Shown here: positions 1 through 26,939 of the stretch, in pieces | Layout of the letters: the number at the start of each line of letters is the position of its first letter | How positions within the stretch are numbered: the stretch's first letter is position 1 | From: Mobula hypostoma | Lineage: Eukaryota | DNA: 64,000 nucleotides | NCBI RefSeq assembly: GCF_963921235.1 | Contig: NW_026948199.1 | Location: 62,001 to 126,000, forward strand | Direction of reading: 5' to 3' | Translations under genes and position numbers: made by a program | Notes under the pieces: model-generated | Databases searched by the model: none | Seen by the model: only the letters and a program-made list of their open reading frames with translations | Told to the model about the DNA's origin: nothing

Positions 1-890
1 CGCATTTCTAATTTCCTGTTTAATGCCATCCCCAACCTCACTATTACTTTTAGGTGGCCTGTACACAACTCCCACCAGCGTTTTCTGCCCCTCAGTGTTA
101 TGCAGCTCTACCCATATCGATTCCACATCCTCCCGGCTAATGTCCTTCCTTTCTACTGCGTTAATCTCCTCTCTAACCAGCAATGCCACCCCACCTCCTT
201 TTCTTTCATATCTATCCCTCCTGGATATTGAATATCCCTGAATGTTGAGCTCCCATCCTTGGTCACCCTGGAGCCACGTCTCTGTGATTCCAACTATATC
301 ATATTCATTAATAACTATCTGCACATTCAATTCATCCACCTTGTTACGAATGCTCCTTGCATTGACACACAAAGCCTTCACGCTTGCTTTTACAACACTC
401 TTAGCCCTTATACAATTATGTTGAAAAGTGACCCTTTTTGATTTTTACCCTGGATTTGCCAGCCTGCCACTTTTATTTTTCACCTTACTACTTTTTGCTT
501 CTACCCTCAATTTACACCCCTCTGTCTCTCTGCACTTGTTCCCATCCCCCTGCCACATTAGTTTAAATCCTCCTGAACAACAGTAGCAAATGCTCCCCCT
601 AGGACATTGGTTCCAGTCCAGCCCAGGTGCAGACCGTCCTGTTTGTACTAGTCCTACCTCCTCCAGAACTGTTTCCAATGCCCCAGAGATTTGAATCCCT
701 CCCCCTTGCACCATTTTTCAAACCACGTATTCATCTGAAATATCCTCCTATTTCTACTCTGACTAGCACGTGGCACTGGTAGTAATCCAGAGATTACTAC
801 CTTTGTGGTCCTATTTTTTAGTTTATCTCCTAACTCCCTAAATCACCTTGTCGGACCTCATCCCGTTTTTTACCTACATCGTTGGTACCG
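1..890 (-). mobile_element. CR1 LINE fragment (end of ORF1 esterase and start of ORF2 AP-endonuclease), 5'-truncated, runs off the left edge
   Basis: The reverse strand encodes GGGVALLVR-type APE motifs and DGLHL esterase motifs, matching the CR1 copies at 16-21 kb and 52-55 kb. Confidence 0.85.
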
Positions 891-1010
891 ATGAAATTGA
901 TAATCTTGAAAGTGACTGTAAACTGTGAGACCAATACTATATGTGGATAAATTAACCCTAAACTTCGATTTAACTATGGATTAAGTAATATCATGATCCA
1001 TTACATTAAG

Positions 1011-1028
1011 TGGCTACCACAGCAGGAC
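1011..1028 (+). other. Candidate retroviral primer-binding site (tRNA-Arg-like), just after a putative LTR end ...CCATTACA at ~1005
   Basis: TGGCTACCACAGCAGGAC matches TGGCGACCGCGGCAGGAC (complement of the vertebrate tRNA-Arg-TCG 3' end, as recalled) at 15/18. All three mismatches fall at CpG positions. Confidence 0.5.
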
Positions 1029-1074
1029 CTGGCTCGCTGCATTGAAAATGTAAACTGCTGTGTTAGTGCAGAGT

Positions 1075-1740: not shown

Positions 1741-2016
1741 GACCCAAAGAACAGGAGGTATCAGAGTCATAACAGTAATAGAGACACAACAGATTCTGTA
1801 GATGCTAGGACACTTGAACAAGACACACACACAGAATGATGGTGGGTCAGCAGGTCAGGGGGCATCTGTGGAAGAAATGAACAGTCAAAAGGTCTTGATC
1901 CAAAGCATTTCATCCATAGATGCTGGCTGACTTACTGAGTTCTTCCAGCATTCTGTGCATGCTGCTCATGGCAGTAATGGGAAAAGTTTTAGTGAAAAGT
2001 GAGAGCAGAATATGTT

Positions 2017-2225: not shown

Positions 2226-2754
2226 GGAAAAGGTCCTCTGAAAGGCACAGACATGCCAAGGTAAAGATTTATGGGATTTAGACCATAACATCCCAGCACA
2301 CATTCTCCAGCAAACTTGTGCTGAAAGGTTAAAAGGAAAGTTATGTCGCATAGCAGTAACGTTTGCAGTAATTGAAGGGCACAGGTTACATTAAAGAAAA
2401 ACAAGAAATTATCTAAGAGACTGCAATTGGAAAACAGGTATAAGGAGTTAAGGAAACAGATGAAACTGAGTGTAAAAAAAGAGAGGAGGAGGTGATAGAT
2501 CAGAGAGAGGAAAAGGGAATACAGTCCACTCCAACTTATGAATATCTGATGTACGTATGGGAGACTTGTGGAATGGATTTGCCAGCTGCTATGTACCTCT
2601 GACATCTTCTGCCCTGTAGGAACATGGTTTGTGACCGCACTTCCATCTTGCAAACTGTTTTTTATTACAAAAGTGTGCAATGCAACTTCACATCTCTAAG
2701 CCAACATCAGCACAGAGATAATAACAGTGTCTAACACAAAATAAATTAAAACTT

Positions 2755-3040
2755 TGTGGCGACCCACTTTCTGGCACCCACGAACCGGCTCACAACGGCG
2801 CGCGCAGGCAGAGGGCCGGCCCCAAAAAGGGCGCCAGGCCATCTTCACCAGCAGGGGGAAAATCCCGCGCGCGGAAAGGGTCTGGGAATATGCATTCCCC
2901 ACAGCAAGCCCGTCCCAGGGAGGATGGGAACGGGAAGGCTTTAAAGCAGGCTGCGAAGTTAGAATAAATCTCTTTCATCGCAACTCTAACTCACCGACTC
3001 CGTGTGGTTATTCTAGCGCTGTGTGTAGCACACCGCTACA
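2755..3040 (+). repeat. 5' LTR of the Gypsy element
   Basis: TGTGGCG...CGCTACA; direct repeat of 6786-7071 with about 12 substitutions; contains AATAAA. Confidence 0.97.
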
Positions 3041-3042
3041 AT

Positions 3043-3056
3043 TGGTGACCCCGACG
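3043..3056 (+). other. Primer-binding site complementary to tRNA-Trp
   Basis: TGGTGACCCCGACG, 2 nt after the 5' LTR, is complementary to the tRNA-Trp 3' end (...CGTCGGGGTCACCA). Confidence 0.9.
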
Positions 3057-3080
3057 GCCCAAACAATATTTGGACCAGAG

Positions 3081-6000
3081 ATGACCGACGCTGCATCTGT
3101 TCATGCAGTTTCGTTAAAACTGCCAAGCTTCTGGACGCTGCGACCCCATTTATGGTTTGAACAAGCAGAAGCTCAATTCCACATTCGGCAGATAACCTCT
3201 GATTCCACTCGCTACTACTACGTGCTGAGCTCCCTCGACCAGGAGACAGCTGCACAAGTTGAGGAGTTTATACAGTCGTCCCCGGAGGACGGTAAATACA
3301 CAGCATTCAAAGCCCTGCTCATAAGGACTTTCGGACTCTCACGGCACGAACGAGCACGCCGCTTAATGCACCTGGATGGTTTGGGAGACAGGCTGCCATC
3401 AGCATTAATGAACGAGATGCTGGCCCTGGCTGAAGGACACAAACCCTGCCTCATGTTTGAGCAGGCGTTCCTAGAGCAACTGCCCGAGGACATATGCCTG
3501 CTGCTGTCTGACGCAGATTTCAGCAACCCCCGGGAGGTGGCGGCCCGAGCAGATGTGCTGTGGAATGCCAAGAAGGAGAGGGGGGCATCCGTCGCACAGA
3601 TCACCAAGCCGCGAGTCCAACGAACAATGGTGTTTCTACCACCAGCGGTGGGGTACAGAGGCCCGCCGCTGCAGACCACCCTGCAAATTCCCGGGAAACG
3701 CCAAGGCCCAGCTGCCGCTGATGGCTACGGCGGCTGGCCATCGGGACAGCCTCCTGTATGTCTGGGACAAGCAGTCGGGGCGCCGCTTTTTGCTCGACAC
3801 CGGAGCGGAGATCAGCGTCTTACCTCTAACGAGTTATGATACCCGCAATAGAGAACCGGGACCCACCCTAAGGGCCGCAAATGGCAGCACAATACGAACC
3901 TACGGCACCCGCACGGTGCGGCTACAGTTCAGCTCCAGCCGGTTCACGTGGGACTTCACACTGGCCGCCGTGGCCCAACCACTCCTGGGGGCGGATTTTC
4001 TGCGAGCCCACAGCCTGCTGGTCTACCTGCAAGGGAAGCGACTAGTCCACGCCAAGACTTTTCAAACGTTCTCCCTGGGTGAAGCCAAGTCGCCAGCCCC
4101 ACACCTGGACTTCATCACGCTGTCCGACGACGAATTCACCAGGGTCCTGGCGGATTTCCCATCAGTACTGACACCGCAGTTCACGGCAGCCATGCCCAGA
4201 CACGGAGTACAGCACCACAGCCCGACCCAGGGACCACCCCTCCACGCCCGTGCTCGAAGGCTTCCCCCGGACAAGCTCCGACTGGCGAAGGAGGAGTTCA
4301 AGAAGATGGAGGAATTGGGGATCATACGACGGTCCGACAGCCCATGGGCCTCCCCCCTTCACATGGTGCCCAAGGCAATGGGAGGCTGGAGACCATGTGG
4401 TGACTACCGCAGACTGAACGAGGCTACGACGCCAGACCGCTACCCTGTGCCGCACATTCAAGACTTCGCAGCAAACCTACACGGCGCAAGGATCTTTTCC
4501 AAGGTAGACCTTGTCCAGGGATACCATCAAATCCCGGTACATCCGGACGACATCCCCAAAACAGCACTTATCACCCTGTTCGGACTTTTCGAATTCCTCC
4601 GAATGCCGTTTGGTCTAAAGAATGCCGCACAGACTTTCCAGCGGCTAATGGACGCGGTGGGACGCGACCTGGACTTTGCATTCATCTATTTGGACGACAT
4701 CCTCATAGCAAGCAGTAGTCGGCAGGAGCATCTGTCCCACCTCCGCCAGCTCTACTCCCGCCTGAGCGAATTCGGCCTTACAATCAACCCAGCCAAATGC
4801 CAGTTCGGACTCGACACCATCGACTTCCTGGGCCACAGGATTACTAAAGACGGGGCAACCCCACTGCCCGCCAAGGAAGACGCGGTCCGCAACTTCCCCC
4901 AACCCAACACAATCAAAGGCCTGCAGGGATTCGTGGGTATGGTGAATTTCTACCACCGTTTCCTCCCCTCAGCAGCCCGAACCATTCGCCCCCTGTTCAC
5001 TCTAATGTCGGGTAAGGGCAAGGGCATTACCTGGGACGAAGAGGCCGCAACCGCTTTCGTTAAAACCAAAGAAGCCTTGGCAAACGCCGCGATGCTACTG
5101 CACCCCAGAACGGACGTTCCTACTGCCCTCACGGTGGACGCATCCAACACAGCAGTCAGTGGAGTGCTGGAACAACTCATCGAGGGTCGCTGGCAATCCC
5201 TGGCGTCTTCAGCAAACACCTACGACCACCCGAACTCAAATACAGTGCTTTCGACCGGGAGCTATTGGCACTATACCTGGCAATCCGGCATTTCAGGTAC
5301 TTCTTAGAAGGTAGGCCCTTCACCATGTTCACAGACCACAAACCGCTTACCTTTGCGTTCATGAAGGTGTCCGACCCCTGGTCGTCCCGCCAGCAGCGAC
5401 ATCTGTCCTACATCTCCGAGTACACGACGGACATCCGGCATGTCTCTGGAAAGGATAACGTCGTGGCGGATGCACTATCCAGACCTACCATACAGGCCCT
5501 GTCCCAGGGGGTGGACTATGCAGCGCTGGCAGAGGCACAGCAGGCAGACGCTGAGATCCCCAGTTACAGGACTGCAGTCTCCGGTTTGCAGCTCCAAGAC
5601 CTCCCCGTAGGCCCAGCTGAGAGGACCCTACTATGTGACGTAGCTACTGGCCAACCCCGCCCCGTCATCCCAGCAGCCTGGCGCCGGCGGGTTTTCGAGT
5701 CCATTCACAACCTAGCGCACCCCTCCATCAGGATAACCGTCCGGCTGGTCTCCAACAGGTCCGTGTGGCATGGGCTGCATAAACAGGTCAGTGAATGGGC
5801 CAAAACGTGCATGCAGTGCCAAACGGCCAAGGTGCAGCGGCACACCAAGGCTCCACCGCAGCGGTTCGAACCCACCCGCCGGAGGTTCGACCACATCCAT
5901 GTGGATATCGTGGGGCCCCTGCCAGTGTTGTGAGGAGTGCAGTACCTCCTAACTATGATAGACCGGTTCACCAGATGGCCAGAGGCAGTCCCACTCACCG

Positions 6001-6782
6001 ACACCACCTCCGAATCCTGTGCCCGAGCACTGATCGCAACCTGGGTAGCCCGCTTCGGGATACCGGCCCACATTACCTCCGACAGGGGCGCCCAGTTCAC
6101 CTCCAGCCTGTGGTCGGCTATGGCCAGCCTCTTAGGATCGCAGCTACACCACACAACTGCCTACCACCCACAGTCGAACGGACTAGTGGAACGCTTCCAC
6201 CGTCACCTGAAATCGGCTCTCATGGCCCGCCTGGAGGGGCCTAACTGGGTGGACAAGCTTCCCTGGGTCCTGCTCGGAATCTGCACGGCGCCCAAAGAGG
6301 ATCTACACACCTCGTCGGCCAAGTTGGTGTACGGCGCACTCCTGGTAGTCCCAAGAGAGTTCATACCAGCCCCAAGGGGGCAAGAGGAAGAACCCACAGC
6401 AGTCCTGGACAGACTACAGGAGAGGCTCGGTAACCTGGCCCCCATCCCCACTTCACAGCACGGACAGAGCCCGACCTGCGTACCCAAAGACCTGCAGAAC
6501 TGTAAGTTTCTTTTTGTACGACGGGGCGGACACCGGGCACCGCTACAGCGGCCCTACGAGGAGCCGTTTAAGGTGATCAGGAACAACGGGTCCACGTTCG
6601 TGCTGGACATTGGGGGGAGAGAGGAGGTTTTCACGGTGGATCGACTCAAACCAGCCCATGTGGACTTGGCGCAGCCGGTCCAGGCTCAGGCACCGCGGCG
6701 CAGGGGCAGACCTCGCAAACAGAGGCTGATCCAGACTGTGGACATTGGGGGAGGTATCGCCGGTTCTGCGGGGGGGGGGGGG
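3081..6782 (+). pseudogene. Gypsy gag-pol polyprotein, disrupted (frameshifts ~3620 and ~5207, stop at 5931-5933)
   Basis: Gag KLPSFW..WFEQAEAQF and [18 protein letters not shown] knuckle; protease LLDTGA; RT YLDD and MPFGLKNA; RNase H VDAS and TDHKPL; integrase H..H..C..C, HVDIVGPL, SDRGAQF and NGLVERFH. Confidence 0.95.
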
Positions 6783-6785
6783 TTA

Positions 6786-7071
6786 TGTGGCGACCCACTT
6801 TCTGGCACACACGAACCGGCTCACAACAGCGCGTGCAGGCAGAGGGCCGGCCCCAAAAAGGGCGCCAGGCCATCTTCACCAGCAGGGGGAAAATCCCGCG
6901 CGCGGGAAGGGTCTGGGAATATGCATTCCCCACAGCAAGCCCGCCCCAGGGAGGGCGGGAACAGGAAGGCTTTAAAGCAGGCCGCGAAGTTTGAATAAAT
7001 CTCTTTCGTCGCAACTCTAACTCACCGACTACGTGTGGTTATTCTAGCGCTGTGTGTAGCACACCGCTACA
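6786..7071 (+). repeat. 3' LTR of the Gypsy element
   Basis: Direct repeat of 2755-3040, preceded by the polypurine tract and followed by TSD ACTT. Confidence 0.97.
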
Positions 7072-8262
7072 ACTTAACCATTCCAATCTAGGATCATATT
7101 TATCCCGTGTGGTGCCCAACGATCCCAGGAATGGGGCATGGTACTCCTCTTAATCCTGCACAATTGTCAGAAATGAGTGAAGTCCCATTCCAGTCTGCTG
7201 GAGGAAGTCAGCGGGTTGGCCAGCATCTGTGCAGGCAGATGGGTGGTCGAGACCCTGCCTCAGGAATAGTCACGTAGAGTGGAGATATGAACATGGCCGT
7301 ATGAAGAGGTGAAGGAGAAGGGTGAAGCAGAGGGCAATCAGGTGATAGGTGAAACCAGGTGTGGAGAGGGTTGCTAGCACATGGAGCCAGGTGGGGGTGG
7401 AGGTGTGGAATTGGGAGACAGTGGCTGGTGGATGATACTTTTGAGGCTAAATATTGAAGGTAAGGTAAAGCTCTGCATCACCAAGTATATTTGATGAGTT
7501 AAAGGTGAATAGAGAGCCAGGAGGTCGAGACCCAGCAACTGCTCGAACAAGGAACCAGCAGGGGTCCAAGGAATATCCAAATACCTTCTTGAATAGGCTG
7601 TGGATGCGTTACATTGCAGTATATGGACCAGGACACTGTGATCAGCTGACTGACTGGGGATAAGCTTACAAGGTTGAGAACATCCATCTCTTACACTAAT
7701 CTGACCACTCACGAGATGGTTTATGATCCATGGATCAATGACCACAGGAATCAAGGGTGTTGGAGAGAATGGAGAGCGTCTGGGAGAAAATGAGATCAAA
7801 GAAACAAGGTGTTAAAATTTCAGCAGTAGTGTGGAGAGATGAGGAAACAGAGGAAGTGTGGGAACAGAAATTACAGGGATAGGATGTGTGTTTTCATTGG
7901 GATGTGCAGAAGTGCTGAGGCAGTGTGGACGAGGTAGAGGAAGAGGAAAATTGAATCTCGTGTTGGAAGTACAGGCTTCAGCTCCAGCTTATGCCTGTGT
8001 TGGAGAGGTGAGCACAGGAAGAAAATCTGTGCTGACAGGGACAGGCATCAGTAAAGGCGATTTGCCCATTTCTTGGACCAGTTTGATCAACTGTGCATCA
8101 AGGGCTGGATTGGCAGCTGCTGTCAAGAATACTATTTGTCCAAGGACAGTTGAGGGAAGAGGAGGACGGTATAAGTAGGAACAAAGGAAATGGGATGCAC
8201 TTGGAGGATTTTCAGGACGTGCCCAGAAAGTGCATGCATCTAAACTGATTTTCCACCACAAA

Positions 8263-8587: not shown

Positions 8588-8855
8588 TAGGAAACTGGGA
8601 AGTTAAAAGTGTATTTCAAGTTTACTCCTGGAATACACTCAACTCTGCTTCACTAAAGCACATTATATTCCAGGAGCAGACTTGAAATAATAATATCATT
8701 AGTAAGATAGTGTTGTTTCCCCAGGAGTTGAATACTGGCACCAGTGGGTGCAAACCAATATCAGATCTTACCACAGCACAAATCATGAGACAGACTCAGA
8801 GGAATTAAATTAAACATGTACACAGGTAAACGTACTACACAATGTTGCAGAGTTA

Positions 8856-11800
8856 GCAGATATATCTAATTTCTTAACATCCTTAGATTTACCATCGGTA
8901 AGAACAGAGCAAAATAAACTAATAACTCAGGAGATAACAGAGATAAGGCTATATCAGCATTAAAAACAAATAAAATCTCAGGTGCTGATGGCTATCCAGC
9001 GGAATGGTACAAAACTTTCAGAGAGATAATAATACCAATACTTAAGAAATGTTTTAATTATGTTCTCGGAGGAGGGGAGACTCTGTTGTCCTGGAATCAA
9101 GCAATAACTTCAGTAATTCCTAAAAGTGGTAAGGATCGGACTGAATGCAGTTCCTATAGGATCATATCTGTTATAAACATAGATTATAGATTATTTGCAT
9201 CAATATTGGTAAAAAGATTGGAAAATACAATTCCAGATCTAATTGACACAGATCAAACAGGTTTTGTAAAAAGTAGGCAAATACAGGCCAATGTGAGACA
9301 GGCCCTTCATCTCACTGACCATATGAGCAATAATAACCTGGAATCTGTAGTTATTAGCCTTGATGCTGAAAAGGCCTTTGACTCGGTACGATGGGAATAT
9401 CTCTCCTTGGTACTTAAGCGGTTTGGCTCTAATAATCAGGTAGTTGTATGTCTGAAATCTTCATATTCTTCCCCTACAGCCAGAATTAAAATAAATGGGC
9501 ATTTATCTGAAACAATATTTCTTGAAAGGGGATGTCGACAAGGGTGCCCCCTAAGCCCCACGCTTTTCGCTCTTTTTATCGAGCCATTGGCCCAGGCAAT
9601 TAGAGAAGACAAGATTATAACAGGTGTACCAATCAGAGATATAGAATATAAGATTTGTTTATATGCGGATGATATTCTCGTCACTCTTACCAATCCCAAT
9701 GCAGGTTTGCCTAAATTATTATCCCTGCTGAAAGAATTCAGTTCCTACTCTGACTATAAATTAAATTTACATAAAACCCAAACTTTAAATTTTAATTATG
9801 AACCACAGGAAAACATTTACAGAATAAGTAAATTCAAATGGAAAGGTAATATGATTAAATACCTAGGAATACAAATACCTGAAGACTTGTCTACTATCTA
9901 CCAACATAATTATATTCCCATAACAGCTGATTTTAAAACAGACTTAAATAGATGGTCATTGCTGCCAATGAATATGTATAATCAAATAGAAACCATAAAG
10001 ATGAATGTATTACCTAAATTGCTCTTTCTTTTTCAATCATTGCCTGTTGAAGTACCTTTTAAGCAATTTAATGAATGGAAAAGAATGACTTCAACATTTA
10101 CTTGGGGAAAACAGAAACCAAGAATTAGATTTCAGACACTACAGCTGCCTAAGGATAAAGGAGGATTTGCTGTGCCTTGCTTTGAAGACTATTAGAGAGC
10201 AGTACAGCTGCGCAGTCTGGTCTGTTGGTGTGATCCCAATTGTGAGGCAAAGTGGAAGGATTTAGAACAAAGTCTAGTAAATATCCCTCTCCAATCTTTA
10301 CTGGGGGATAAAATGCTCCAAAAGAAGCATTTAAATAAACTGACTAAGTGGACAACAGTCCCTCTAAACATCTGGTATAAAGAATTTAAAGACCCAAAAT
10401 TTGAAAGAAATGTAAGAATACTACGTTGGGTGGCACATGACATGGAGTTCCTTCCAGCACAATTGGATGGAAGATTTACACATTGGACAAGTAAGGGAAT
10501 CACCTCATACTGTACAATATCCTCCATTAAGGGGTTGGAGTCCTTTCCACAACTCACAGAAACTTGTCACTTAGAGAAACAAGATTTCTTTAGATATCTA
10601 CAACTCAGACAAAATTTTAATAATAATATTAAAACTATTGGAGAGAATGGGTTAAGTCTGATTAATATATTCATTGATGTGTATAAAGGTAATATTAAAA
10701 AGAAACCGATAACCAGGATTTACTCGATTTTACCATCTAACAGGGGTCTCTCCACAATGTATGTTAAATCAAAATGGGAGAAAGAAGCCAACATACAATT
10801 GACAGAAGATGATTGGTTAAACATACGCAGAACACATTCAACTACTTCAAGCTCAGGTCTGTGGAGGGAATTCACCTGGAAGAATACTTTAAGATTTTTC
10901 ATAATGCCAAAAATAAAGAAGTTACAAAGTAACAGGGTCAATGTTGGAGAATGTGTGATAATATGTTGGCTGATCATTTTCATATTTTCTGGGAGTGTCC
11001 AAAGATTTTGGCTTATTGGTTAGATGTGGTAACAGAGATAAGGTCAATAATCAGCCCAGACATTAATTTTGACTTTAATGTTATTTATTTGGGTAATGTA
11101 CCAAATGGGCTCAAAAAACATGAAAGATATTTGTTACAAATACTCAAACAACAGGAATTCTGCAGATGCTGGAAATTCAAGCAACACACATAAAAGTTGC
11201 TGGTGAACGCAGCAGGCCAGGCAGCATCTCTAGGAAGAGGTACAGTTGACGTTTCAGGCCGAGACCCTTCGTCAGGATGAACTGAAGGAAGGGTCTCGGC
11301 CTGAAACGTCGACTGTACCTCTTCCTAGAGATGCTGCCTGGCCTGCTGCATCCACCAGCAACTTTTACGTGTGTTGTTACAAATACTACCAGCAGCCAGT
11401 AAGAAAGCGATTATCAGGAAACAGCTAAGCAAAGAGTCTCCTACAGTCCTGGAATGGATAGAAATAGTTCAAAAAATGTATGTTATAGAACGATTGACTT
11501 TCTCTCTGAGACATGCCACGAAAAAAGTTTGAAAGATATTGGGAAAATTGGACATTTTATCTGAGCCTGAAATGACTCCTTCACTGTTTGGTTTGAAGAA
11601 CTTTGTTTTATTTCTTCTTATGAGGGAAACTGCAGAATGGACTTTAGAGTTATGGATGTTAAGGTCTCCTGAGACTTTGAAGGACAATTATGGACGTAAG
11701 AGTTTGGTTAACCTTGATACAGCAATGCAACCCACTTTGCTATTCATTTTTCCTATTACAGTATAAGATACGGATTTTACTTCACCTATGATGACCCTGT

Positions 11801-11860
11801 CTGTTAGTTTTTATCCTGTTTGTTCTGTTATTGGCAAAACAATAAGCGTAATGTTATGAA
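8856..11860 (+). mobile_element. L1/Tx1-clade LINE ORF2 (5'-truncated pseudogene) plus 3' UTR
   Basis: RT motifs SLDAEKAFD, RGCRQGCPLSP and CLYADD (ORF 9086-10195); premature TAG at 10193-10195; C-terminal C..C...DHFHIFWECPKI knuckle; AT-rich. Confidence 0.92.
11145..11373. mobile_element. Short fold-back Penelope pLTR derivative inserted in the L1
   Basis: About 89-bp inverted arms (11182-11270 / 11288-11376); flanking duplication TTGTTACAAATACT at 11131-11144 and 11374-11387. Confidence 0.88.
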
Positions 11861-12599
11861 ATGTATGTAGGTGTAGATGAAGCATAAACATTTCCGTGGA
11901 AGAATGGGGAGGGAGGGGCGTTGATATATCACTGTCACATGTTGCAAGGTATAGTGAAACACTTTGTTTTGTATGCCATCCACACAGATCATTTTACCAC
12001 ATCAGTACACTGATGTTACAGAAAGGAAAAGCAGTAACAGAATGCAGAACATTGTGTTACAATTAAAGAGGAAGTGCCACGCAGGGGTACAATAATGTGG
12101 AAGATCCATGACGAGGCAGATTATTAGGTTAATACGTTTACCATTATTTACACTAACCTAATGTAAAGGGGATGGAAGCTTAGTGTTCCAGGTTTTCCAG
12201 CTTTTAAAACCTCTGTCTGATGGGGAGGGGGGTGTAGAAGAGAGACTGTCTGGGGTGAAAGGGGTCTTTGATTATGCTGGCTGCGAGAAGTGTTCAAGGT
12301 CCATGAGGGAACTGTTAATCAGACCCAAAAACAGCTTCCTTTCTGAAGAACATGCACAAAATGCCGGAGGAACTCAGCAAGTCAGATAGCATCTATGGAG
12401 AGGAATAAACTGTCAACATTTCGGACCAAGACCAAAATATTTTGGACCGCTCCCAGCTTCTTACTTCATCCACCTATCTTCCTTCCCTCATCTGGTCACA
12501 CCTAATACCTGCCAGTTTGTACTCCTTCCCCTCCCTCCACCACCTTATTGTGGCTTCTGCCCCCTTCCTTTCCAGTCCTGTTGAAGGGCCCTGATCCTT

Positions 12600-14420: not shown

Positions 14421-14424
14421 AAAT

Positions 14425-15050: not shown

Positions 15051-18000
15051 AATAAGGAGGGAAAAATCAGTATATGCTGAAAAATTCTGTAGAGCCTAGA
15101 CAGGAGGTCACATAAGCAGTGGGCACCCAGCCCAGACGGGTATTTGGTCAAGTACTAAAGACACGTGCTGACCAACTGGCCGGAGTATTCACTGAGATCC
15201 TAGACCTGTCGTTTCAGCGGTGTGAGGTACTCACACGTTTCAAGCAGGCTCCAGTTATATGGGTGCCTAAGATGGATGCAGCACTTACATTCACTGCGAT
15301 GGAGTGCTTCGAGAGGTCGGTGATGAAACCTACCAACTCCCACCTGAGAAGCAGCTCGGATCCTCTCCCATTTGCCTATCACCACAAGAGCTCAACAGCA
15401 GATGCCATTTTACTGGCTCTTCATTCATTCCTGGAACATCTGGACAGCAAAGGTGCACACATCGGGATGCTCTTCACTCGGCATTCAACATTATCATGTC
15501 CTCAAAACTCCAAGTCCTAGGCCTCAATATCTCCTTGTGCAACTGGATTCTTGATTTCATCACTTGCAAACCCCAGTCAGTTCGGACTAGCAACAACACC
15601 TCCTCCACAACCTCCCCCAGCACCGATGCATTACAAGCTGTGTGCTTAGCCACCTAGCTCTACTCACTTTATATTTATGGCTGCGCACAGCTTCAATGCC
15701 ATAGTTAACCTTGCTGACGACACCGATGTCATTGGCCGAATCAGCACAAAGGAGGGAGATTGAAAATCTGGCTGAGTGATGCCACAGTAACAATATCTCA
15801 CTCAATGTCAGCAAGACCAAGGAACTGATTATCGGCTTCATGAGGGGGAAACTGGAGGTTCATGAACTGGGAATCAGAGGTAGAGAGGGCCAGCAACTTT
15901 AAATTCCTCAGTGTTATAATTTTCAAAGGATTTGTCCTGGGTCCTGCAAGTAACTGCCATTACGTGAGGCAGCGGGAGTGTTTAAAAGCGAGAAGATTGT
16001 GAAGGTTGGTGATTTCTTCCGCAGTTGAACGGGGCACAACTGCACAAGCGCGTGTAAGTCGGACCGTGAGGCAGCGGGAGTGTTTAAAAGCAAGAAGATT
16101 AACAGAGCGGACGACATTGTAGCGGGTGATGGAGTAAAGGGAGACAGAGTAGGAAGGCTTTGGCTCGAGAGGTTTTAGCGAGCAGAGGCTGAGGATCAGC
16201 TTCGCTCCAAGTGAGGTAAGGCCGGGTAAGTTTCTTAAATTAATTTAATTACCTTAAGAGTAGGCAATGGAGGCAGCAGTTAGGGCAGTTGAGTGCTCTG
16301 CTTGCAGGATGTGAGAAGTCAGGGCGAGTACAATTGTCCCTGATGACTACACCTGCAAAAGGTGCATCCAGCTGCAGCTCCTGACAAACGGAGTTAGGGA
16401 ACTAGAGCTGGAGCTGGATGAATTTCAGATCATTCGTGAGGCAGAGGCAGAAATAGACAGGAGTTACAGGGAGATAGTCATCCCTAGGAGTCAGGAGACA
16501 GGTAACTGGGTGACTGTCAGGAGAGGGAAGGGGAATAGACAGAATGAGCAGAGCACCCCTGTGGCCGTTTCCACCAATAATAAGTGTATCATTTTGGATA
16601 CTGTTGATGGGAACGACCTACCAGGGACAAGTTGCAGTGGTTGCATCTCTGGCACCGAGACGGGACCCTCAGCTCAGAAGGGAAGGAGGGAAAAGAGGAG
16701 AGCAGTAGTGATAGGGGATTCCATAGTTAAGGGGGCAGATAAGAGGTTCTGTGGAAGAGATCAAGAATCCCGGATAGTCTGTTGCCTCCCTGGTGCCAAA
16801 GCCCGCAATATCTCGGATCGAGTTCTCAGTATTCTCAAGAGGGAGGGTAAGCAGCCGGATGTCATGGTCCATGTAGGGACCAATGACGTGGGTAGGAAGA
16901 GTGAGGGGTCCTGAAAGGTGAGTTTAGGGAGTTAGGTGCCAAGTTAAAGGACAGGACCTCCAGGATAGCAATCTCAGAATTGCTACCAGTGCCATGTGCA
17001 GGCGGGTTTAGAAATAGTAAGACAGCGCAAATCAACACGTGGCTGAAGACATGGTGCAGAAGGGGGGGCTTCAGATTTATAGATAATTGGGCAGTTTTCC
17101 AGGGGAGGTGGGACCTGTTCCGGCGGGACGGTTTACATCTGAACTGGAGGGGGACAAATATTCTTGCAGGTAGGTTTGCTAGAGAGGCTCCAGTGGATTT
17201 AAGCGAGATACAAGGGGGGAGGGGAACCAGAGTGTCGGAACAGATGTAGGGAAGAAGGAAGAAAAAGGAGATAGTGAAGTTGTTTGCACCGTTAGTGATA
17301 AACAGAGAGCAAGAGGTGGAAAATTTCTTAAATACATTTATTTTAATGCTAGGAGCATTGTAAGAAAGGTGGATGAGGTTCCAGGAGGGGTGTGATTGGC
17401 AACTAAATATTCCTGGATTTCATTGCTTCAGGTGTGATAGAATCGGAGGGACAAGAGGGGGAGGTGTTGCATTGCTTGTCAGAGAAAATATTACAGCGGT
17501 GCTCTGACAGGATAGATTAGAGGGCTTGTCTAGGGAGGCTATTTGGGAAAGGTGTTGTGACGCTTATAGGGGTGTATTATAGACCACCAAATGGGGAGCG
17601 AGAATTGGAGGAGCTAATCTGTATGGAGATAGCAGATATTTGTAGTAAGCACAAGGTTGTGATTGTGGGAGATCTTAATTTTCCACACATAGACTGGGAA
17701 GCCCATACTGTAAAAGGGCTAGATGGTTTGGAGTTTGTAAAATGTGTGCAGGATAGTTTTTTGAAGCAATACATAGAGGTACCAACTAGAGAAAGGGCAG
17801 TGTTGGATCTCCTGTTAGGGAATGAGATAGGTCAGGTGATGGAGGTTTGTGTTGGGGAGCACTTCGGGTCCAGTGATCACAATGCTATTAGTTTCAATAT
17901 AATTATGGAGAAGGATAGGTCTGGACCCAGAGTTGAGATTTTTGATTGGAGAAAGGTTAACTTTAAGGAGATGTGAAACAATTTAGAAGGAGTGGATTGG

Positions 18001-18272
18001 GACAATTTGTTTTATGGGAAGGATGTAATAGAGAAATGGAGGTCATTTAAAGGTGAAACTTTGAGGGTACCGAATCTTTGTGTTCCTGTTAGGTTGAAAG
18101 GAAAGGTTAAAAGTTTGAGAGAGCCATGGCTTTCAAGGGATATTGGAAACTTGGTTCCGAAAAAGAGAGATATCTACAATAAATATAGGCAGCATGGAGT
18201 AAATGAGGTGCTTGAGGAATATAAAGAATGTAAAAAGAATCTTAAGAAAGAAAAGCTAAAAGAAGATATGAG

Positions 18273-18651
18273 CAACATACATCAAAGTTGCTGGTGAACG
18301 CAGCAGGCCAAGCAGCATCTGTAGGAAGAGATGTAGTCGACGTTTCAGGCCGAGACCCTTCGTCAGGACTAACTGAAGGAAGAGTGAGTAAGGGATTTGA
18401 AAGTTGGAGGGGGAGGGGGAGATCCAAAATAATAGGAGAAGACAGGAGGGGGAGGGATAGAGCCGAGAGCTGGACAGGTGATAGGCAAAAGGGGATACGA
18501 GAGGATCATGGGACAGGAGGTCCGGGAAGAAAGACAGGGGGGGGGTGACCCAGAGGATGGGCAAGAGGTATATTCAGAGGGACAGAGGGAGAAAAAGGAG
18601 AGGGAGAAAAAGGAGAGTGAGAGAAAGAATGTGTGCATAAAAATGATAAAA
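18273..18651 (-). mobile_element. Penelope pLTR fragment nested in CR1 ORF2
   Basis: Reverse complement of the pLTR; AAGATATGAG duplicated at 18263-18272 and 18652-18661. Confidence 0.85.
18335..18375 (-). ncRNA. Minimal type-I hammerhead ribozyme motif (Penelope-associated), core intact
   Basis: Minus strand reads AGTC-CTGACGA-AGGGTCTCGGCCT-GAAAC-GTC-GACT: CUGANGA core, stem II, GAAA, palindromic ACGU stem III, GUC cleavage triplet and stem I AGTC/GACT. Confidence 0.75.
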
Positions 18652-18921
18652 AAGATATGAGGTTGCTTTGGCAAGTAAGGTGAAAATAAATCCAAAGGGT
18701 TTCTATAGTTATATTAATAACAAAAGGATAGTGAGGGATAAAATTGGTCCCTTAGAGAATCAGAGTGGACAGCTATGTGTGGAGCCAAAAGAGATGGGGG
18801 AGATTTTAAACAATTTCTTTTCTTCTGTATTCACTAAGGAGAAGGATATTGAATTGTGTAAGGTAAAGGAATCAGATAGGGAAGTTATGGAAACTATGAT
18901 GATTAAAGAAGAGCAAGAACT

Positions 18922-20109
18922 TGTCACAATGGGGGCGTTGGAAGCGGACCCAAATGCAAGACACAGACACTGAAGTACAAGGAACAGGACTTGACTAGAG
19001 TAAGGACGTGACAGGATACAGACAAGGAGCAGGGACAAGTACACAGACTAGGGCTTGGACCCTAAGCCAGAGACTGGACAAGGACCCAGAACCTGGGTCT
19101 TGCCTCGGGCTCGGGCCCCAGAACCAGGCATTGACATGACATAACTGCAGGACTGGAGGCTGGGGTCTAGAGGCTTGAGGCTTGGAGACAGGCTTGGGGT
19201 CTTGAGGTTTGAGCTTGGAGAAAGGCTTGGAGTCTTGAGGCTTGAGGCTTGGAGACAGGCTTGGGGTCTTGATCTTGAGGTTTGAGCTTGGAGACAGGCT
19301 GGGGGTCTTGGTCTAGAGTACTTCAAGGCTTGGGTATGGATTCCAAGCCAGAGACTGGGCAAGGACCCAGAACCTGGGACTTGACTTGGGCTTGGATTCC
19401 AGAACTAGGCAAGGACAAGACGAGGCTACAGGACTGGACATGGCTTGGGTGTGGAACTCCTGGGTAGGGCGAGACACAAGGACAGGCAAAGGCACATGGC
19501 CAGGACTCGGATAGGACTGGACTAGCACGGACTGGACGAGGGCCTTCAGGAGCACGGAGCCTTGGACTACAAGAGACAGGAGCATGGAACACAGAGCCAA
19601 GACCCCTCCTTGGGAACAGGATGTAGGGCCGGGACTCACACACATAACACAGAGCCGGGACCCCTCCTTGGGAACAGGACGTAGGGCCGGGACTCATACA
19701 CAGAACACTGAACATAAAGAGGCAGATCCCAACACTAGGTGGCAGCAAACGGCTGGACCTACCTAGCGAAGGCGTGGACACAGACAGACAATTCCACACA
19801 ACGAAAGACAGCTCCTTATCTTGACCTAACAAGGCTCCAGTCTTGCTCCAGCGGTAAGACTTCAGCGATACAGGCGGGGTATCCAGGCTAGGGGAGCAGG
19901 CAGAGAGCCAGGCGAAGGGGGAAAATAGAGGGAGGGGAACAGGACAGTCCAGCAGCAAATCTCTGGTTTGCAGAGGTATTTATGTCTCAGCCCCAAAATG
20001 AGAAACATGTGCCCACAACAGAACCTGGGAAAAAGCAGAAACCCCAGAACAAAGAACCATGGACCGGACCGTGAACCGGAACACGGACTTCATGGACCTG
20101 ACTATGACA
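18922..20109 (-). mobile_element. Solo LTR (~1.19 kb, Gypsy-type) with internal tandem sub-repeats, nested in the CR1
   Basis: TGTCA...TGACA termini; 5-bp TSD GAACT/GTACT (18917-18921, 20110-20114); TATA-like CATAAATA on the minus strand at ~19976-19983; no coding domains. Confidence 0.8.
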
Positions 20110-20261
20110 GTACTGGCGTTTTTAAGGAATATAAAAGTGGATAAGTCTCCGGGTCCTGACAGGATATTCCCCAGGACCTTGAGGGAAGTTAGTGTGGAAA
20201 TAGCAGGGGCTCTGACAGAAATATTTCAGATGTCATTAGAAATGGGGATGGTGCCAGAGGA

Positions 20262-20578
20262 GTCTAGTACGAGAGGGCATGACTTAAGGATTGAAGGGCG
20301 CCCATTCAGAACAGAAATGCGAAGAAATTTTTTTAGTCAGAGGGTGGTGAATCTATGGAAATTGTTGCCACAGGCGGCATGGAGGCCAAGTCATTGGGTG
20401 TATTTAAGGCAGAGATTGATAGGTATCTGAGTAGCCAGGGCATCAAAGGTTATGGTGAGAAGGCAGGGGAGTGGGACTAAATGGGAGAATGAATCAGCTC
20501 ATGATAAAATGGCGGAGCAGACTTGATGGGCCAAATGGGCGACTTCTGCTCCTTTGTCTTATGGTCTTATCTCTTATG
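20262..20578 (+). mobile_element. 3' end of a different CR1 subfamily, inserted into CR1 ORF2 with loss of host sequence
   Basis: TRGHDLR..FFSQRVVNLW and a (TCTTATGG)n tail; the host ORF2 jumps from VPE to GIYNY. Confidence 0.8.
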
Positions 20579-23113
20579 GAGGTGGTATATATAATTATCC
20601 GGATAGACAGGGTCTGATTAGGAACAGTCAACATGGATTTGTGCGTGGAAAGTCATGTTTAACAAATCTTATTGAATTTTTTGAAGAGGTTACTAGGAAA
20701 GTTGACGAGGGTAAAGCGGTGGATGTTGTCTATATGGACTTCAGTAAGGCCTTTGACAAGGTTCCACACGGAAGGTTAGTTAGGAAGGTTCAATCGTTAG
20801 GTATTAATATTGAAGTAGTAAAATGGATTCAGCAGTGGCTGGATGGGAGACGCCAGAGAGAAGTGTAGATAACTGTTTGTCAGGTTGGAGGCCGGTGACT
20901 AGTGGTGTGCCTCAGGGATCTGTACTGGGTCCAATGTTATTTGTCATATATTAATGATCTGGATGATGGGGTGGTAAATTAGATGAGTAAGCATGCAGAT
21001 GATACTAAGATAGGTGGAGTTGTGGAAAATGAAGTAGGCTTTCAAAGTTTGCAGAGATATTTAGGCCAGTTAGAAGAGTGGGCTGAAAGATGGCAGATGG
21101 AATTTAATGCTGATAAATGTGAGTACATTTTGGTAGGACTAATCAAAATAGGACATACATGGTAAATGGTAGGGCATTGAAGAATGCAGTAGAACAGAGG
21201 GATCTAGGAATAATGGTGCATAGTTCCCTGAAGGTGGAATCTCATGTGGATAGGGTGGTGAAGAAAGCTTTTGGTATGCTGGCCTTTATAAATCACAGCA
21301 TTGAGTATAGGAGTTGGGATGTAATGTTGAAATTGTACAAGGCAATGGTGAGGCCAAATTTGGAGTATTGTGTACAGTTCTGGTCACCGAATTATAGGAA
21401 AGATGTCAACAAAATAGAGAGAGTACAGAGAAGATTTACTAGAATGTTACCTGGGTTTCATCACCTATGTTACAGAGAAAGGTTGAACAAGTTGGGTCTT
21501 TATTCTTTGGAGCGTAGAAGGTTGGGGGGGAGACTTGATAGAGGTATTTAAAATTATGAGGGGGATAGAGTTGACGTGGATAGGCTTTTTCCATTTAGAG
21601 TCGGGGAGATTCAAACAAGAGGACATGAGTTGAGAGTTAAAGGTCAAAAGTTTAGGGGTAACATGAGGGGGAACTTCTTTACTCAGAAAGTGGTAGCTAT
21701 GTGGAATGAGCTTCCAGCAGAAGTGGTTGAGGCAGGTTCGATGTTGTCATTTTAAGTTAAATTGGACAGCTATATGGACAGGAAAGGAATGGAGGGTTAT
21801 GGGCTGAGTGCAAGTCGGTAGGACTAGGTGAGAGTAAACGTTCGGCACGGACTAGAAGGGCCGAGATGGCCTATTTCTGTGCTGTAATTGTTATATGGTT
21901 ACGAAGGAAGCATGGCAGTACCTCTACTTAGAAGATTGTGAAGGTTTGGCTCATCATATAAAACTTTGAAAAACTTTTATAGATGTGTGATGGAGAGTAT
22001 ATTGACTGATTGCATCATGGCCTGGTGTGGAAACACCAAACCTAATATGGACAAGCCTACAAAAAATGGTGGATATGGCCCAGCCCTTCACGGGTAAAGC
22101 ACTTTCACCGTTGAGCACACAATGCTATCACAGGAAAGCAGCATCCATCATCAAGAACTCCCACCATCCAGACCATGCTCTCTTCTCAGTGCTGTCATCA
22201 GGAAGAAGGTACAGGTGCCTCAACACCCATAGCACCAGGCTCGGGAACAGTTATTACCTCTCAACCATTGGGTTTTTTGAACCAGAAGGGTAACTTCACT
22301 AAAATATTCCCACAACTGATGGACTTACTTTCAAGGACTCTTCGTTTCACATTCTCAATATTTGCTATAATTATTATATTCCCTTTCTTTTTGTATTTGC
22401 AGTTTGTCAGGGTTTTTTTTGCATATTGGTTGCTGTCCATCCGGCTGGGTGCAAGTCTTTCATTGATTCTATTGTGTTTCTTGTATATACTGTATTGGCA
22501 ACAAGAAAATGAATCTCAGGGTTGTGTGACATACATGTATTTTCACAAATTTTATTTGAGCTTTGGATAGATTGCTCCTGGTCATGGAATAAATTTTAGG
22601 AGCCAGGTTTGTTTTAATGGCACTAAACGTGTTAGAAGTTTATGGGAACTGAACGGCACATGTGAAGGCAACCTATGGGGAATGCGGCTTATTTTAAAAA
22701 TCAATAGGCCCATAGGATATTCCAGTGTCGTGTCTAATGTGGAATTATGACATAACCAAACCCATCATTGGATATACTCTTAGTGATAAAATAAATGCCA
22801 CTCTCGCTGATGTGGGAAAGTGCAATACAGAAACTGAATATTGTGGAAGAAATGTAATAAATATTTTCCATTTAATAGAAGTCTGGTACATACAATGCAG
22901 GGAGAAAGGAGGAATAGGTATGGGAATGAGAATCTCAACTAATTCCATAAAGAAACTCTCTCCAACTCAGAAGTTGTAAAGGTGAGCATAAGTTAGGGAC
23001 ATTGTTAAACCAAGTTATGTGGCAAGGAACATGGAATTTGTGGGCAGAAGTGAATATAACAACATGACAACCATGTAGCTACAAAAGGGCAGAGCACCAA
23101 TACCAACCTTAAT

Positions 23114-25090
23114 TTATAGGAAGAAGTACAGTTGACGTTTCGGGCCGAGACCCTTTGTCAGGGCTAACTGAAAGAAGAGACAGTAAGAGATTTGAAAGTG
23201 GGAGGGGAAGGGGGAGATCCAAAATGATAGGAGAAGACAGGAGGGGGAGGGATGGAGCCAAGAGCTGGACAGGTGATTGGCAAAAGGGATATGAGAGGAT
23301 CATGGGATGGGCGAGAGGCCTAGGGAGAAAGAAAGTTGGAGTGGGGGAAGCCCAGAGGATGAGCAAGGAGTATAGTGAGAAGGACAGAGGGAGAAAAAGG
23401 AGAGAGAGAGAAAAATATAATAATAAAAGATAAATAATGGATGGGGTATGAAGGGGAGGTGGGGCATTAATGGAAGTTAGGGAAGTCAATGTTCATATCA
23501 TCACGTTGGAGGCTACCCAGATGGAATATAAACTTGAGGGCAGGGTGAAAGTTGGAGGCAAAGTTAATGAAGTCAACGAGCTCAGCATGTATGCAGGAAG
23601 CAATGGCAATGCAGTCGTCGATGTAGCGAAGGAAAAGTGGGGAACAGATACCAGTATGGGCTTCATTAAGTTTGCCTCCAACTTTCACCCTGCCCTCAAG
23701 TTTACCTGGTCCATTTCCAACACCTCCCTCCCCTTTCTTGACCTTTCTGTCTCTATCTCTGGAGACAGCTTATCTACTGATGTCTACTATAAGCCTATGG
23801 ACTCTCACAGCTACCTGGACTATTCCTCTTCTCACCGTCTCGCAAAAATGCCATCCCCTTCTCGCAATTCCTCTGTCTCTGCCGCATCTGCTCTCAGGAT
23901 GAGGCTTTTCATTCCAGGACGAAGGAGATGTCCGTTTTTAAAGAAAGGGGCTTCCCTTCCTCCACCATCAACTCTGCTCTCAAATGTATCTCTGCCATTT
24001 CATGCACATCTGCTCTCACTCCAACCTCCCGTCACCACACTAGGAATAGGGTTCCCCTTGTCCTCACCTACCACCCCAGCAGCCTCCGCGTCCAACATAT
24101 TATTCTCCGTAACTTCCGCCACCTCCAACGGGATCCCACCACTAAGCACATCTTTCCCTCCCCCCCCCCCCACCGGCTTTCAGCAGGGATCGCTCCCGAC
24201 GCAACTCCCTTGTCCATTCGTCCCCCCCATCCCTCCCCACTGATCTCCCTCCCGGCACTTATCCTTGTAAGCGGAACAAGTGCTACACATGCCTTTACAC
24301 TTCCTCCCTCACCACCATTCAGGGCCCCAGACAGTCCTTCCAGGTGAGGCGACACTTCACCTGTGAGTCGGCTGGGGTGATATACTGCGTCCGGTGCTCC
24401 CGATGTAGCCTTCAATATATTGGCGAGACCCGATGCAGGCCGGGAGACCGTTTCACTGAACACCTACGCTCTGTCCACCCGAGAATGCAGGATCTCCCAG
24501 TGACCACACATTTTAATTCCATGTCCCATTCCCATTCTGATATGTCTATCCACGGCCTCCTCTACTGTCAAGATGAAGCCACACTCAGGTTGGAGGAACA
24601 ACACCTTATATTCCGTCTGGATAGCCTCCAACCTGATGGCATGAACATCGACTTCTCTAACTTCCGTTAATGCCCCACCTCCCCCTCGTACCCCATCCGT
24701 TATTTATCTTTTATTATTATTTTTTTCTCTCTCTCTCCTTTTTCTCCCTCTGTCCTTCTCACTATACTCCTTGCCCATCCTTCCCCTTTCTTTCTCCCTA
24801 GGCCTCCCGTCCATCCCATGATCCTCTCATATCCCTTTTGCCATTCAACTTTCCAGCTCTTAGCACCATCCCTCCCCCTCCTGTCGTCTCCTATCATTTC
24901 AGATCTCCCCCTCCCCCTCCCACTTTCAAATCTCTTACTATCTCTTCTTTCAGTTAGTCCTGACGAAGAGTCTCGGCCTGAAACGTCGACTGTACCTCTT
25001 CCTATAGACGCTGCCTGGCCTGCTGCTTTCACCAGCAATTTTTATGTGTGTTGCTTGAAATTCCAGCATCTGCAGATTTCCTCGTGTTTG
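23114..25090 (+). mobile_element. Penelope-like element (RT C-terminus, GIY-YIG endonuclease, pLTR) with an inverted 5' segment
   Basis: FLRYIDD on the inverted piece, NFHPALKFT, FLDL, and GIY-YIG GVIYCVRC..C..QYIGET..RFTEH (24344-24670); 23114-23660 is inverted; 11-bp TSD CCAACCTTAAT at 23103-23113 and 25091-25101. Confidence 0.93.
24952..24992 (+). ncRNA. Hammerhead ribozyme motif in the Penelope pLTR (one stem II mismatch)
   Basis: AGTC-CTGACGA-AGAGTCTCGGCCT-GAAAC-GTC-GACTG. Confidence 0.65.
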
Positions 25091-26285
25091 CCAACCTTAA
25101 TCTGCAGTGTTTAATTGTGCAAAATATGGTGGTACATAACTGAGAGCAATAATACTGGCGTCAAGAATAATCTAACTCAGACCATTTTCAGCATGATGAT
25201 AATCTAATTAGTTATAATAATAAAGGAACTTCAAAGGGATGTGACCGCTTTATTGTTTCAACCTGAAGTACTTAAACAAAGGGAGAAGAGGGATGATTTG
25301 CAATTTTGGGATAATACCTAAAATAATGCAAGACTGGACAAGACGTCAACAGCACAAACTAAACACTGATGGGGTTTCCATTAATGCCACCAGTCTGTGT
25401 TATACAGTGACAAACCAAAGCTCATTCACAGCATACAACATTCTCTGGGATGTGTCTGGCAGAATCGATGATAATGAAACTCAAGTATAGGATGATGAGC
25501 AATAATGTAATTATTTGTGTTATTTCTTCAGACAGTTTATTGGGAAGATAGGATAATTAATAAGAAACCAGAGAAACAATGTTGGCATAATGTCTCATGT
25601 GTGGACAGAAGGTTTCAGTATATTGGCTCATCTAACATAACAAGGAGAATGAGAAAATATATCCCACCCAATTAATTTAACCGCCATTAGGGAGCATTTA
25701 GGAAAATTCCTTAAAATGTTTCAGAAACGACTAAAGATGTGAGACACCAGTAATTATTGGTGTGGACTGTGGTTTATATCGGTTTCCTTCAGTTTTTGTT
25801 TTTTTTTGTTGCTGATTGGTGGGTGGGTGATGTTTCTTCTTTTGGGCGAGGAAGGGGTTGTGGGTTTGAGATCTGATGTACTTGTTGGTATTTTCCGTGT
25901 GAACGATCCGTTATTGCGTGCAAGAGTTTGGGGGAGGGTTGACGTTATTGTCACTGTTTTTATTTGTGGGAGGGGCTTGGGGGTTAGGGGTTTGATCTTT
26001 TAGCTGCTGTGTTCAGGTGAGCGATCTGTTAAGTTTTTGTGCAGGGGAGGAGTTGATATCTGTTCTTCCATGGTTTTTCTGTATTTCATGGCTATCTGGA
26101 GAAGACGAATCTCAGAGTTGTATTCTGCAAACATACTTTGATAATAAAATTAATCTTTGGACTTTTAAAGATGGAAAAAGACCTACAACAAAAAGAGATT
26201 AATATGGTATATGGCCAAAGAGAATTATTAAGATTGGCTAAGATTGAGGATATTTTCAGGAGGTGGTGCCTCAAGAAGTCAGCAT

Positions 26286-26496
26286 CCATCAGGAAGGATC
26301 CCACCCCAAGGACATGCCCTCTTCACATTCCTTCTCCATCAGGGAGGATCCCACCCAAGGACATGCCCTCTTCACATTCCTTCTCCATCAGGGAGGATCC
26401 CACCCCAAAGACATGCCCTCTTCACATTCCTTCTCCATCAGGGAGGATCCCACCCAAGGACATGCCCTCTTCACATTCCTTCTCCATCAGGGAGGA
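26286..26496 (+). repeat. Tandem repeat, four copies of 49-50 bp, amplified inside a Rex 3' fragment
   Basis: Unit CCATCAGGGAGGATCCCACCC(C)AAGGACATGCCCTCTTCACATTCCTTCT; lengths alternate 50/49. Confidence 0.9.
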
Positions 26497-26939
26497 GGGA
26501 CAGAAACCTGAAGGTCCACATTCAGAAACTGTTTTTTCCCCTCTGCCACCAAATGAGCCCATGAATAGTACTTCACTATTTACTTTTGCCATATGAGTTT
26601 AGTAATTTACAGTAAGCTTACATGTTTGCACTGCACTGCTCCACAACAGCAAATTTTATGCCACATAAAAGTGATAACATAACAGATCATGATTACCTAT
26701 TGGTGGGATATTTTTGAAGGGTGTTCCACCAAAGCTCATGTAGTTTTAAGATTAGCCAACCACTTGGCAATTGTACAATTTGCATTAAAAATAATAGTTC
26801 GCATTGGCTTCATTATTGTCATATGTACCAAGACAGAAAGAAAAGTTTTGATTGCATGTTGTCACAATGATCTTTGTATGTTACACGATCAAACTCTGTA
26901 CGTACAATGACAAGGGAACAGAAATTTTGTATGATGTAA

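What the first reader, a model, noticed from the sequence alone, without database searches (positions are those of the whole stretch)
890..26800. Shattered ancient endogenous retrovirus (Arg-PBS, pol, env) underlying the whole left TE nest
Seen in sequence: once the younger insertions are set aside, the residual plus-strand pieces are collinear. In order: a putative LTR end at ~1005, a tRNA-Arg-like PBS (1011-1028, mismatches only at CpGs), a Lys/Glu-rich coiled-coil-like stretch (~2240-2640, possible gag MA), RT with QQCTWT..GFHNSP and integrase PWTSLQID (12600-14420), then env-like motifs ending in YWWDIFEGCS and a hydrophobic segment (22560-26800). Established: the QYTWxxLPQGFxNSP signature is retroviral rather than Gypsy (MPFGL). 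Snakehead retrovirus uses an Arg PBS and has a coiled-coil MA. Inference: this is a class III SnRV-like or lokiretrovirus-like fossil, stretched to ~26 kb by at least 10 later insertions. Such a lineage is probably poorly documented in cartilaginous fishes. The ORF track does not show it.
Basis: partly seen in the sequence, partly recalled or inferred. Interest (0 to 1): 0.7.

Follow-up and report, generated by a model that had tools for sequence, protein, structure and literature searches.

The report
Very old shattered fish retrovirus fossil
This is the dead remnant of one retrovirus, likely related to the snakehead-fish virus, that was split by a dozen later jumping genes, is also present in four other organisms' genomes, and likely entered a fish ancestor some 100 million years ago; the kind is already known, and only its age stands out.

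Summary
The named motifs are there, in retroviral order, and the element is larger than stated. I found a capsid-like gag piece (7532-7843) and a pair of terminal repeats, 4.4 kb left of the window and at 27709-28054, so it spans about 33 kb. Its RT groups with a younger multi-copy family of this genome and amphibian/coelacanth elements near snakehead retrovirus (SnRV). Lokiretrovirus (AU p 2e-7) and Gypsy (p 0.007) are rejected; foamy, gamma/epsilon and ERV-L/S placements are not formally excluded. The primer site matches a host tRNA-Arg gene at 15 of 18 letters. The env pieces fill the env slot and are rich in glycosylation sites, but match known Env only marginally (p 0.01-0.02). The provirus is dead. 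It is single-copy and present in four other organisms at 2-9% divergence. Its LTRs differ by K2P 0.33-0.45, so it is probably about 100 My old or older (uncalibrated). SnRV-like ERVs are published for cartilaginous fish, and this scan noted similar shark fossils on other DNA. New member of a known kind.

The parts
901..1005 (+). End of the 5' LTR remnant (inferred). A further piece lies left of the window at G000:C128:57267-57577, behind two repeat blocks
   Evidence: Single-copy; directly before the primer site; upstream piece pairs with 27709-28054; the repeat left of 901 does not continue in 3 of 4 other organisms
1011..1028 (+). Primer-binding site, tRNA-Arg type, decayed
   Evidence: 15 of 18 letters match host tRNA-Arg(TCG) gene L084; 2 of 100 shuffles; unchanged in 3 of 4 other organisms, one more change in the fourth
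2234..2754 (+). Likely N-terminal gag piece with coiled-coil character, frameshifted
   Evidence: Heptad score reached by 1 of 150 genomic controls; homology to related Gag not significant; adjoins 7073 across the Gypsy insertion
2755..7072 (+). Later insertion: Gypsy LTR retrotransposon, LTRs 96% alike, 4-bp target duplication
7532..7852 (+).
   Evidence: HMM of the related family 16.6 bits against at most 5.9 in 30 shuffles; frameshift-aware 40.6, 0 of 60 shuffles
8591..12210 (+). Later insertion block: LINE with RT, itself holding a SINE with a 14-bp target duplication
   Evidence: RVT_1 E 3e-42
12589..13424 (+). RT and start of tether, with stops, frameshifts and loss of the YxDD region
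13425..13774 (.). Later repeat insertion in pol
14010..14453 (+). Integrase zinc-binding and core pieces
   Evidence: Integrase_H2C2 E 1.9e-4, below Pfam's cut-off; tblastn and HMM hits
14603..22565 (.). Block of several later LINE-type insertions
22566..23113 (+). Env-slot piece A
   Evidence: Single-copy; sequon excess with piece B
23114..25101 (.). Later Penelope-type insertion with inverted arms and an 11-bp target duplication, showing that pieces A and B were neighbours
25102..25739 (+). Env-slot piece B
   Evidence: 19 sequons in A+B against 7.6 +/- 2.7, 0 of 1000 shuffles; weak in-register match to an Env relative
26555..26957 (+). Env-slot piece C: tryptophan motif and likely transmembrane segment
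   Evidence: tail profile p about 0.05-0.1
27709..28054 (+).
   Evidence: 122 of 165 columns identical to the upstream piece, score 78 against at most 45 in 200 shuffles; no second match in the genome search

Best explanation
This is the dead remnant of a single retrovirus, likely of the SnRV-related class III group, that integrated in the germ line of a fish ancestor, probably about 100 million years ago or earlier, and was then split by at least a dozen later transposons. Shown: retroviral gag, RT and integrase pieces in order on one strand, an Arg-type primer site, two matching terminal repeats around them, stops, frameshifts and deletions in every gene, single-copy state, and the same pieces in four other organisms. 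Inferred: the virus primed reverse transcription with tRNA-Arg, entered cells with a glycosylated class I fusion Env only distantly related to SnRV-type Env, became fixed, and has since decayed neutrally while serving as a harmless landing place for LINEs, SINEs, a Penelope and a Gypsy. It makes no working protein today.
For: Order LTR-PBS-gag-RT-IN-env-LTR on the + strand. RT identity 47 of 90 and 48 of 104 to the genome's younger family, 41 of 104 to SnRV, 27-29 of 104 to loki-type, 12-21 of about 104 to Gypsy. In the 46-row tree the fossil sits in a clade of 93.7/98 support with SnRV as sister at 80.9/87. AU rejects loki and Gypsy. LTR pair 0 of 200 shuffles, K2P 0.33-0.45, against 0.04-0.07 for two copies of the younger family. 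Target duplications show neighbours across two insertions. Single-copy contigs in 4 of 4 runs laid cover pol and env pieces at 2.0, 4.8, 6.8 and 8.6% difference, and the 5' piece too.
Against: Only 104 RT residues inform the tree; AU does not reject foamy, gamma/epsilon, bird class III or SnRV-alone placements (p 0.07-0.11), and SnRV was not sister in the first tree. Env pieces have no clear match to SnRV, foamy, MLV or WDSV Env or to the younger family's Env; a combined profile gives only 1-2 of 100 shuffles. The primer site differs from the younger family's. No contig bridges pol to env. The LTR match is 165-292 columns long, the R/U5 part has no partner, and the age has no calibrated rate.
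Confidence: 0.85

Rival explanations
1. The pieces come from two elements: an SnRV-related gag-pol fossil and an unrelated env-bearing provirus that landed in or beside it.
For: gag and pol match the younger family, env does not clearly; 8 kb of repeats separate integrase from env and no contig spans them.
Against: One LTR pair brackets all pieces; same strand, right order, no second gag, pol or primer site in the residue; all pieces occur in the same four organisms. Env evolves fast and is often swapped (established knowledge; also PMC7947760 discussion).
Confidence: 0.09
2. It is a real provirus but much younger than 100 My; the LTR distance is inflated or the paired repeat is not an LTR pair.
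For: Short, gap-rich alignment; distance moves from 0.33 to 0.45 with settings; small repeat-rich contig of 181 kb; no calibrated rate.
Against: Orthologues up to 8.6% apart already share the decay and most insertion edges; even the mammalian rate of 2.2e-9 gives 75-100 My, and sharks are reported as slower (PMC10587355, PMC4422223).
Confidence: 0.25
3. It is a lokiretrovirus, the first in a cartilaginous fish.
For: The integrase motif resembles loki integrases; loki were found in 0 of 6 chondrichthyan genomes, so it would be new.
Against: Published loki RTs read CPFGYxNSP and IYVDD; this one keeps GFHNSP like the SnRV-related group; AU p 2.4e-7; loki Env tails look different by eye (8 of 23 seen).
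Confidence: 0.01
4. The pol pieces are Gypsy debris and the rest is chance.
For: The region is full of transposons, among them a real Gypsy.
Against: AU p 0.007; identity 12-20%; gag, primer site, LTR pair and sequon excess are each beyond chance.
Confidence: 0.01
5. The host kept the element for a function (co-opted env or regulatory LTR).
For: Long persistence in at least five organisms.
Against: Stops and frameshifts in all genes; pol, env and LTR pieces diverge alike between organisms; insertions were tolerated throughout.
Confidence: 0.03

Closest known systems
Snakehead retrovirus (SnRV; record L082 and protein P0014, identified by comparing their RT with the SnRV row in the PMC7947760 supplement)
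   Same: RT motif type, nearest named exogenous virus, Arg-type primer site, coiled coil in Gag
   Different: Only 41 of 104 RT residues identical; another tRNA-Arg sequence; no detectable Env homology; dead
CmiERV lineage I of the elephant shark (PMC4422223) and clade Huo / class III ERVs (PMC6001957)
   Same: SnRV-related ERVs in cartilaginous fish
   Different: CmiERV-1 has LTRs 0.033 apart; these are about ten times further apart. Sequences not compared directly
Younger multi-copy family in the same genome (L047-L064, 'family A')
   Same: Closest RT, integrase and capsid relative
   Different: DNA alike only over about 80 bp of RT; other primer site and LTR; Env of another or very distant type; LTRs only 0.04-0.07 apart
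Lokiretroviruses (PMC7947760)
   Same: gag-pol-env layout, tether domain, similar integrase motif
   Different: RT motif and tree position differ; rejected
ERV-L insertion orthologous across placental mammals, 104-110 My (PMC5962544)
   Same: Very old class III insertion dated by orthology
   Different: Mammalian and calibrated; the age here is uncalibrated

Membership tests
Retroviridae (ERV) | RT groups with retroviruses, not Metaviridae | tested here: met
Retroviridae (ERV) | LTR-PBS-gag-pol-env-LTR order | tested here: met
Retroviridae (ERV) | Tether plus second RNase H | tested here: inconclusive
   Tether start found, RNase H not found and probably deleted; both present in family A
Retroviridae (ERV) | env homologous to a known retroviral Env | tested here: inconclusive
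   Right slot, sequon excess and hydrophobic tail; homology p 0.01-0.02 only
SnRV-like / clade Huo (class III) | RT clade includes SnRV | tested here: inconclusive
   Sister at 80.9/87, not; other retroviral placements not rejected
SnRV-like / clade Huo (class III) | tRNA-Arg primer site and coiled-coil Gag as in SnRV | tested here: met
   not shared by all relatives, family A has another primer site
Lokiretrovirus | RT in the loki clade, sister to retroviruses | tested here: not met
Lokiretrovirus | Env similar to paramyxovirus F (PF00523) | tested here: inconclusive
   No Pfam hit in 9 single frames; frameshifts weaken the test
Metaviridae (Gypsy) | RT with MPFGL motif in the Gypsy clade | tested here: not met
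Gamma/epsilon (class I) | Gamma-type Env with CX6CC and immunosuppressive motif | tested here: inconclusive
   No CX6CC or LQNR in any + frame of the env pieces, but decay could hide them; RT placement p 0.07

The most novel reading that the evidence does not exclude
One of the oldest datable retroviral insertions in any fish: a class III provirus fixed well over 100 My ago in early rays, still traceable by orthology, carrying an Env lineage distinct from SnRV, foamy, gamma-type and loki Env on an SnRV-related pol. It would give a hard minimum age for SnRV-like viruses in cartilaginous fish and a dated case of env exchange.
Probability: 0.3. Interest if true: 0.55.

Novelty: new member of a known kind. 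Interest (0 to 1): 0.33.

Why it matters
As a kind it is ordinary: class III ERVs are the main ERV type in cartilaginous fish. Its value is as a time marker. Orthologous ERV insertions near 100 My are rare (a 2017 review knew none older than 104-110 My, PMC5962544), and slow-evolving sharks and rays may keep older ones readable. The stacked insertions, one of them absent in three of four other organisms, also date transposon waves in this lineage.

Tried and rejected
Protein database searches with the decayed RT and env-tail pieces found nothing (99 and 7 candidates, none scored); weak evidence. Pfam gave no env, gag or RT family on single frames. PDB search gave only foamy Pol at E 0.2. Genome searches with env pieces found only the locus itself or a satellite. 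A degenerate env-tail pattern gave 7 hits against 4 control hits; apart from the locus itself, the five loci I read (L087-L089, L091, L092) showed no env relative, and L090 was not read. Twenty further ERV-like places held no closer gag or env relative. The protein atlas gave no result. A fold of an Env relative of family A was too poor to search with (pLDDT 46.5), so the paramyxovirus-F-like fold claimed in earlier notes is untested. The metagenome scan gave one short contig. No RNA holder listed. No partner for the R/U5 part in seven unique stretches to 38 kb. The genome DNA search missed even the known LTR partner, so 'single-copy' means no copy above roughly 75% identity. I first took the motifs for loki from memory; the published alignments overturned that. 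Rows left out of trees: 12 near-duplicate or chimeric rows, 18, and 9 panel proteins without a usable motif.

Full report
Observation. The window is G000:C128:62001-126000, on a 181-kb contig of a 3.5-Gb genome. The four named motifs are present on the + strand. Comparison with 62 and later 101 other loci shows which parts are common repeats; the residue is about 5.4 kb in nine pieces, cut by at least 12 repeat blocks. A 4-bp target duplication flanks the Gypsy at 2755-7072 and an 11-bp one the Penelope-type insertion at 23114-25101, so the pieces on either side were neighbours.

Pol. Searches of the genome with the integrase and RT pieces gave 32 matches of 109 scored and 135 of 150 scored. 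Most of those I read belong to a younger family (family A) with LTRs, zinc knuckle, RT, tether, RNase H, integrase and an Env with a basic cleavage site. Its RT fetched 57 database proteins. P0014 and record L082 agree with the SnRV RT printed in the supplement of PMC7947760; P0039 and P0042-44 carry the published loki motif; foamy, gamma, epsilon and delta RTs came from viral records, labelled by motif. The fossil's 104 usable RT residues are closest to family A. It sits with family A and amphibian and coelacanth elements in both trees, next to SnRV in the better-sampled one. The AU test (5,000 replicates, fast search, 28 rows) rejects loki and Gypsy but not four other retroviral placements. 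The panel was found with family A's RT and so is rich in its relatives. YxDD is gone; protease and RNase H were not found.

Gag and primer site. A family-A profile finds a capsid-like piece at 7532-7843 (1 of 60 genomic controls scored higher, probably a family-A copy in the control pool, not checked). The stretch at 2234-2754 is coiled-coil-like by my own score but not significantly homologous. The primer site matches a tRNA-Arg(TCG) gene of this genome at 15 of 18 letters. SnRV's own primer site has another sequence (Arg type by recall) and family A's is different again (Asn type by recall), so the fossil is a separate family.

Env. The three pieces between integrase and the 3' repeat hold 19 N-glycosylation sequons in A+B against 7.6 expected (0 of 1000 shuffles), while gag and pol pieces show no excess. 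A hydrophobic segment ends piece C. Direct homology is weak: none of 10 Env relatives of family A hit by tblastn; of 18 frameshift-aware comparisons two beat all 20 shuffles, about what chance allows; a 28-sequence profile is reached by 1-2 of 100 shuffles, and a region chosen afterwards ties the best of 300. I call it env by slot and composition, of uncertain type.

LTRs and age. A piece 4.4-4.7 kb left of the window matches 27853-28052 at 122 of 165 columns (0 of 200 shuffles), extending to 292 columns at 67% with laxer gaps; K2P is 0.33-0.45, against 0.043 for the Gypsy and 0.044 and 0.072 for two family-A copies. The span is about 32.8 kb. 19 of 24 listed runs, in 10 studies and 10 organism labels, hold part of the pol stretch, 4 of them possibly the source of this assembly. 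I laid 4 of them, from four other labels. All show single-copy contigs on pol and env pieces, 2.0-8.6% different (one run covers only parts), and one contig each on the 5' piece; in three the sequence left of 901 is not the repeat seen here. So the insertion predates these splits, and by LTR distance is about four times older than the deepest. At the mammalian rate used in PMC7947760 that is 75-100 My. The rate assumed in PMC4422223 gives an impossible 750 My or more, so the true rate lies between and the age is probably 100 My or more. This is inference; organisms are coded and no rate was measured.

Literature. PMC7947760: parts 1-3 of the text and supplement passages; loki in 0 of 6 chondrichthyan genomes. 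PMC4422223: part 1 of 2; SnRV-related lineage in elephant shark. PMC6001957, PMC11089739, PMC4977317, PMC12440569, PMC5962544, PMC10587355: passages only. Searches listed no paper on dated orthologous ERVs in sharks or rays; the library lacks most subscription papers, and supplements of these papers, not read, may hold related elements. Older orthologous ERVs may have been published since 2017.

Verdict. A real, dead, single provirus of a known group. The age is the only point a specialist would pursue.

Noticed in passing
L047-L064 (e.g. G000:C1:63478443-63489693): A younger multi-copy SnRV-related ERV family with 700-800-bp LTRs 4-7% apart, a non-Arg primer site and Env lacking any Pfam family; all copies read are broken. 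Its database relatives are labelled 'NYNRIN-like' or 'Gypsy integrase-like' although their RT is retroviral.
   Followed up: partly
window 2755-7072: Fairly young Gypsy element, LTRs 96% alike, with frameshifts, inserted in the fossil's gag.
   Followed up: partly
window 23114-25101: Penelope-type insertion with inverted arms, a GIY-YIG remnant and an 11-bp target duplication.
   Followed up: partly
L065:7488-window 901: A LINE in the 5' LTR that appears present in one other organism and absent in three; a 96% identical inverted copy of part of it lies at window 35052-36078. A usable presence/absence marker.
   Followed up: partly
window 38150-42300: Tandem array of a 51-bp unit, about 80 copies, which produces the long ORFs there.
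   Followed up: no
L106:2957-4400 and 8624-9070: A more diverged SnRV-related pol fragment lies about 4 kb from an immunoglobulin light-chain V-J-like stretch (recognised from memory).
   Followed up: no
L034, L100, L101, L110-L112: Epsilon-like ERV RTs also occur in this genome.
   Followed up: partly
window 60347-61100: A run of 754 N, outside the finding.
   Followed up: no
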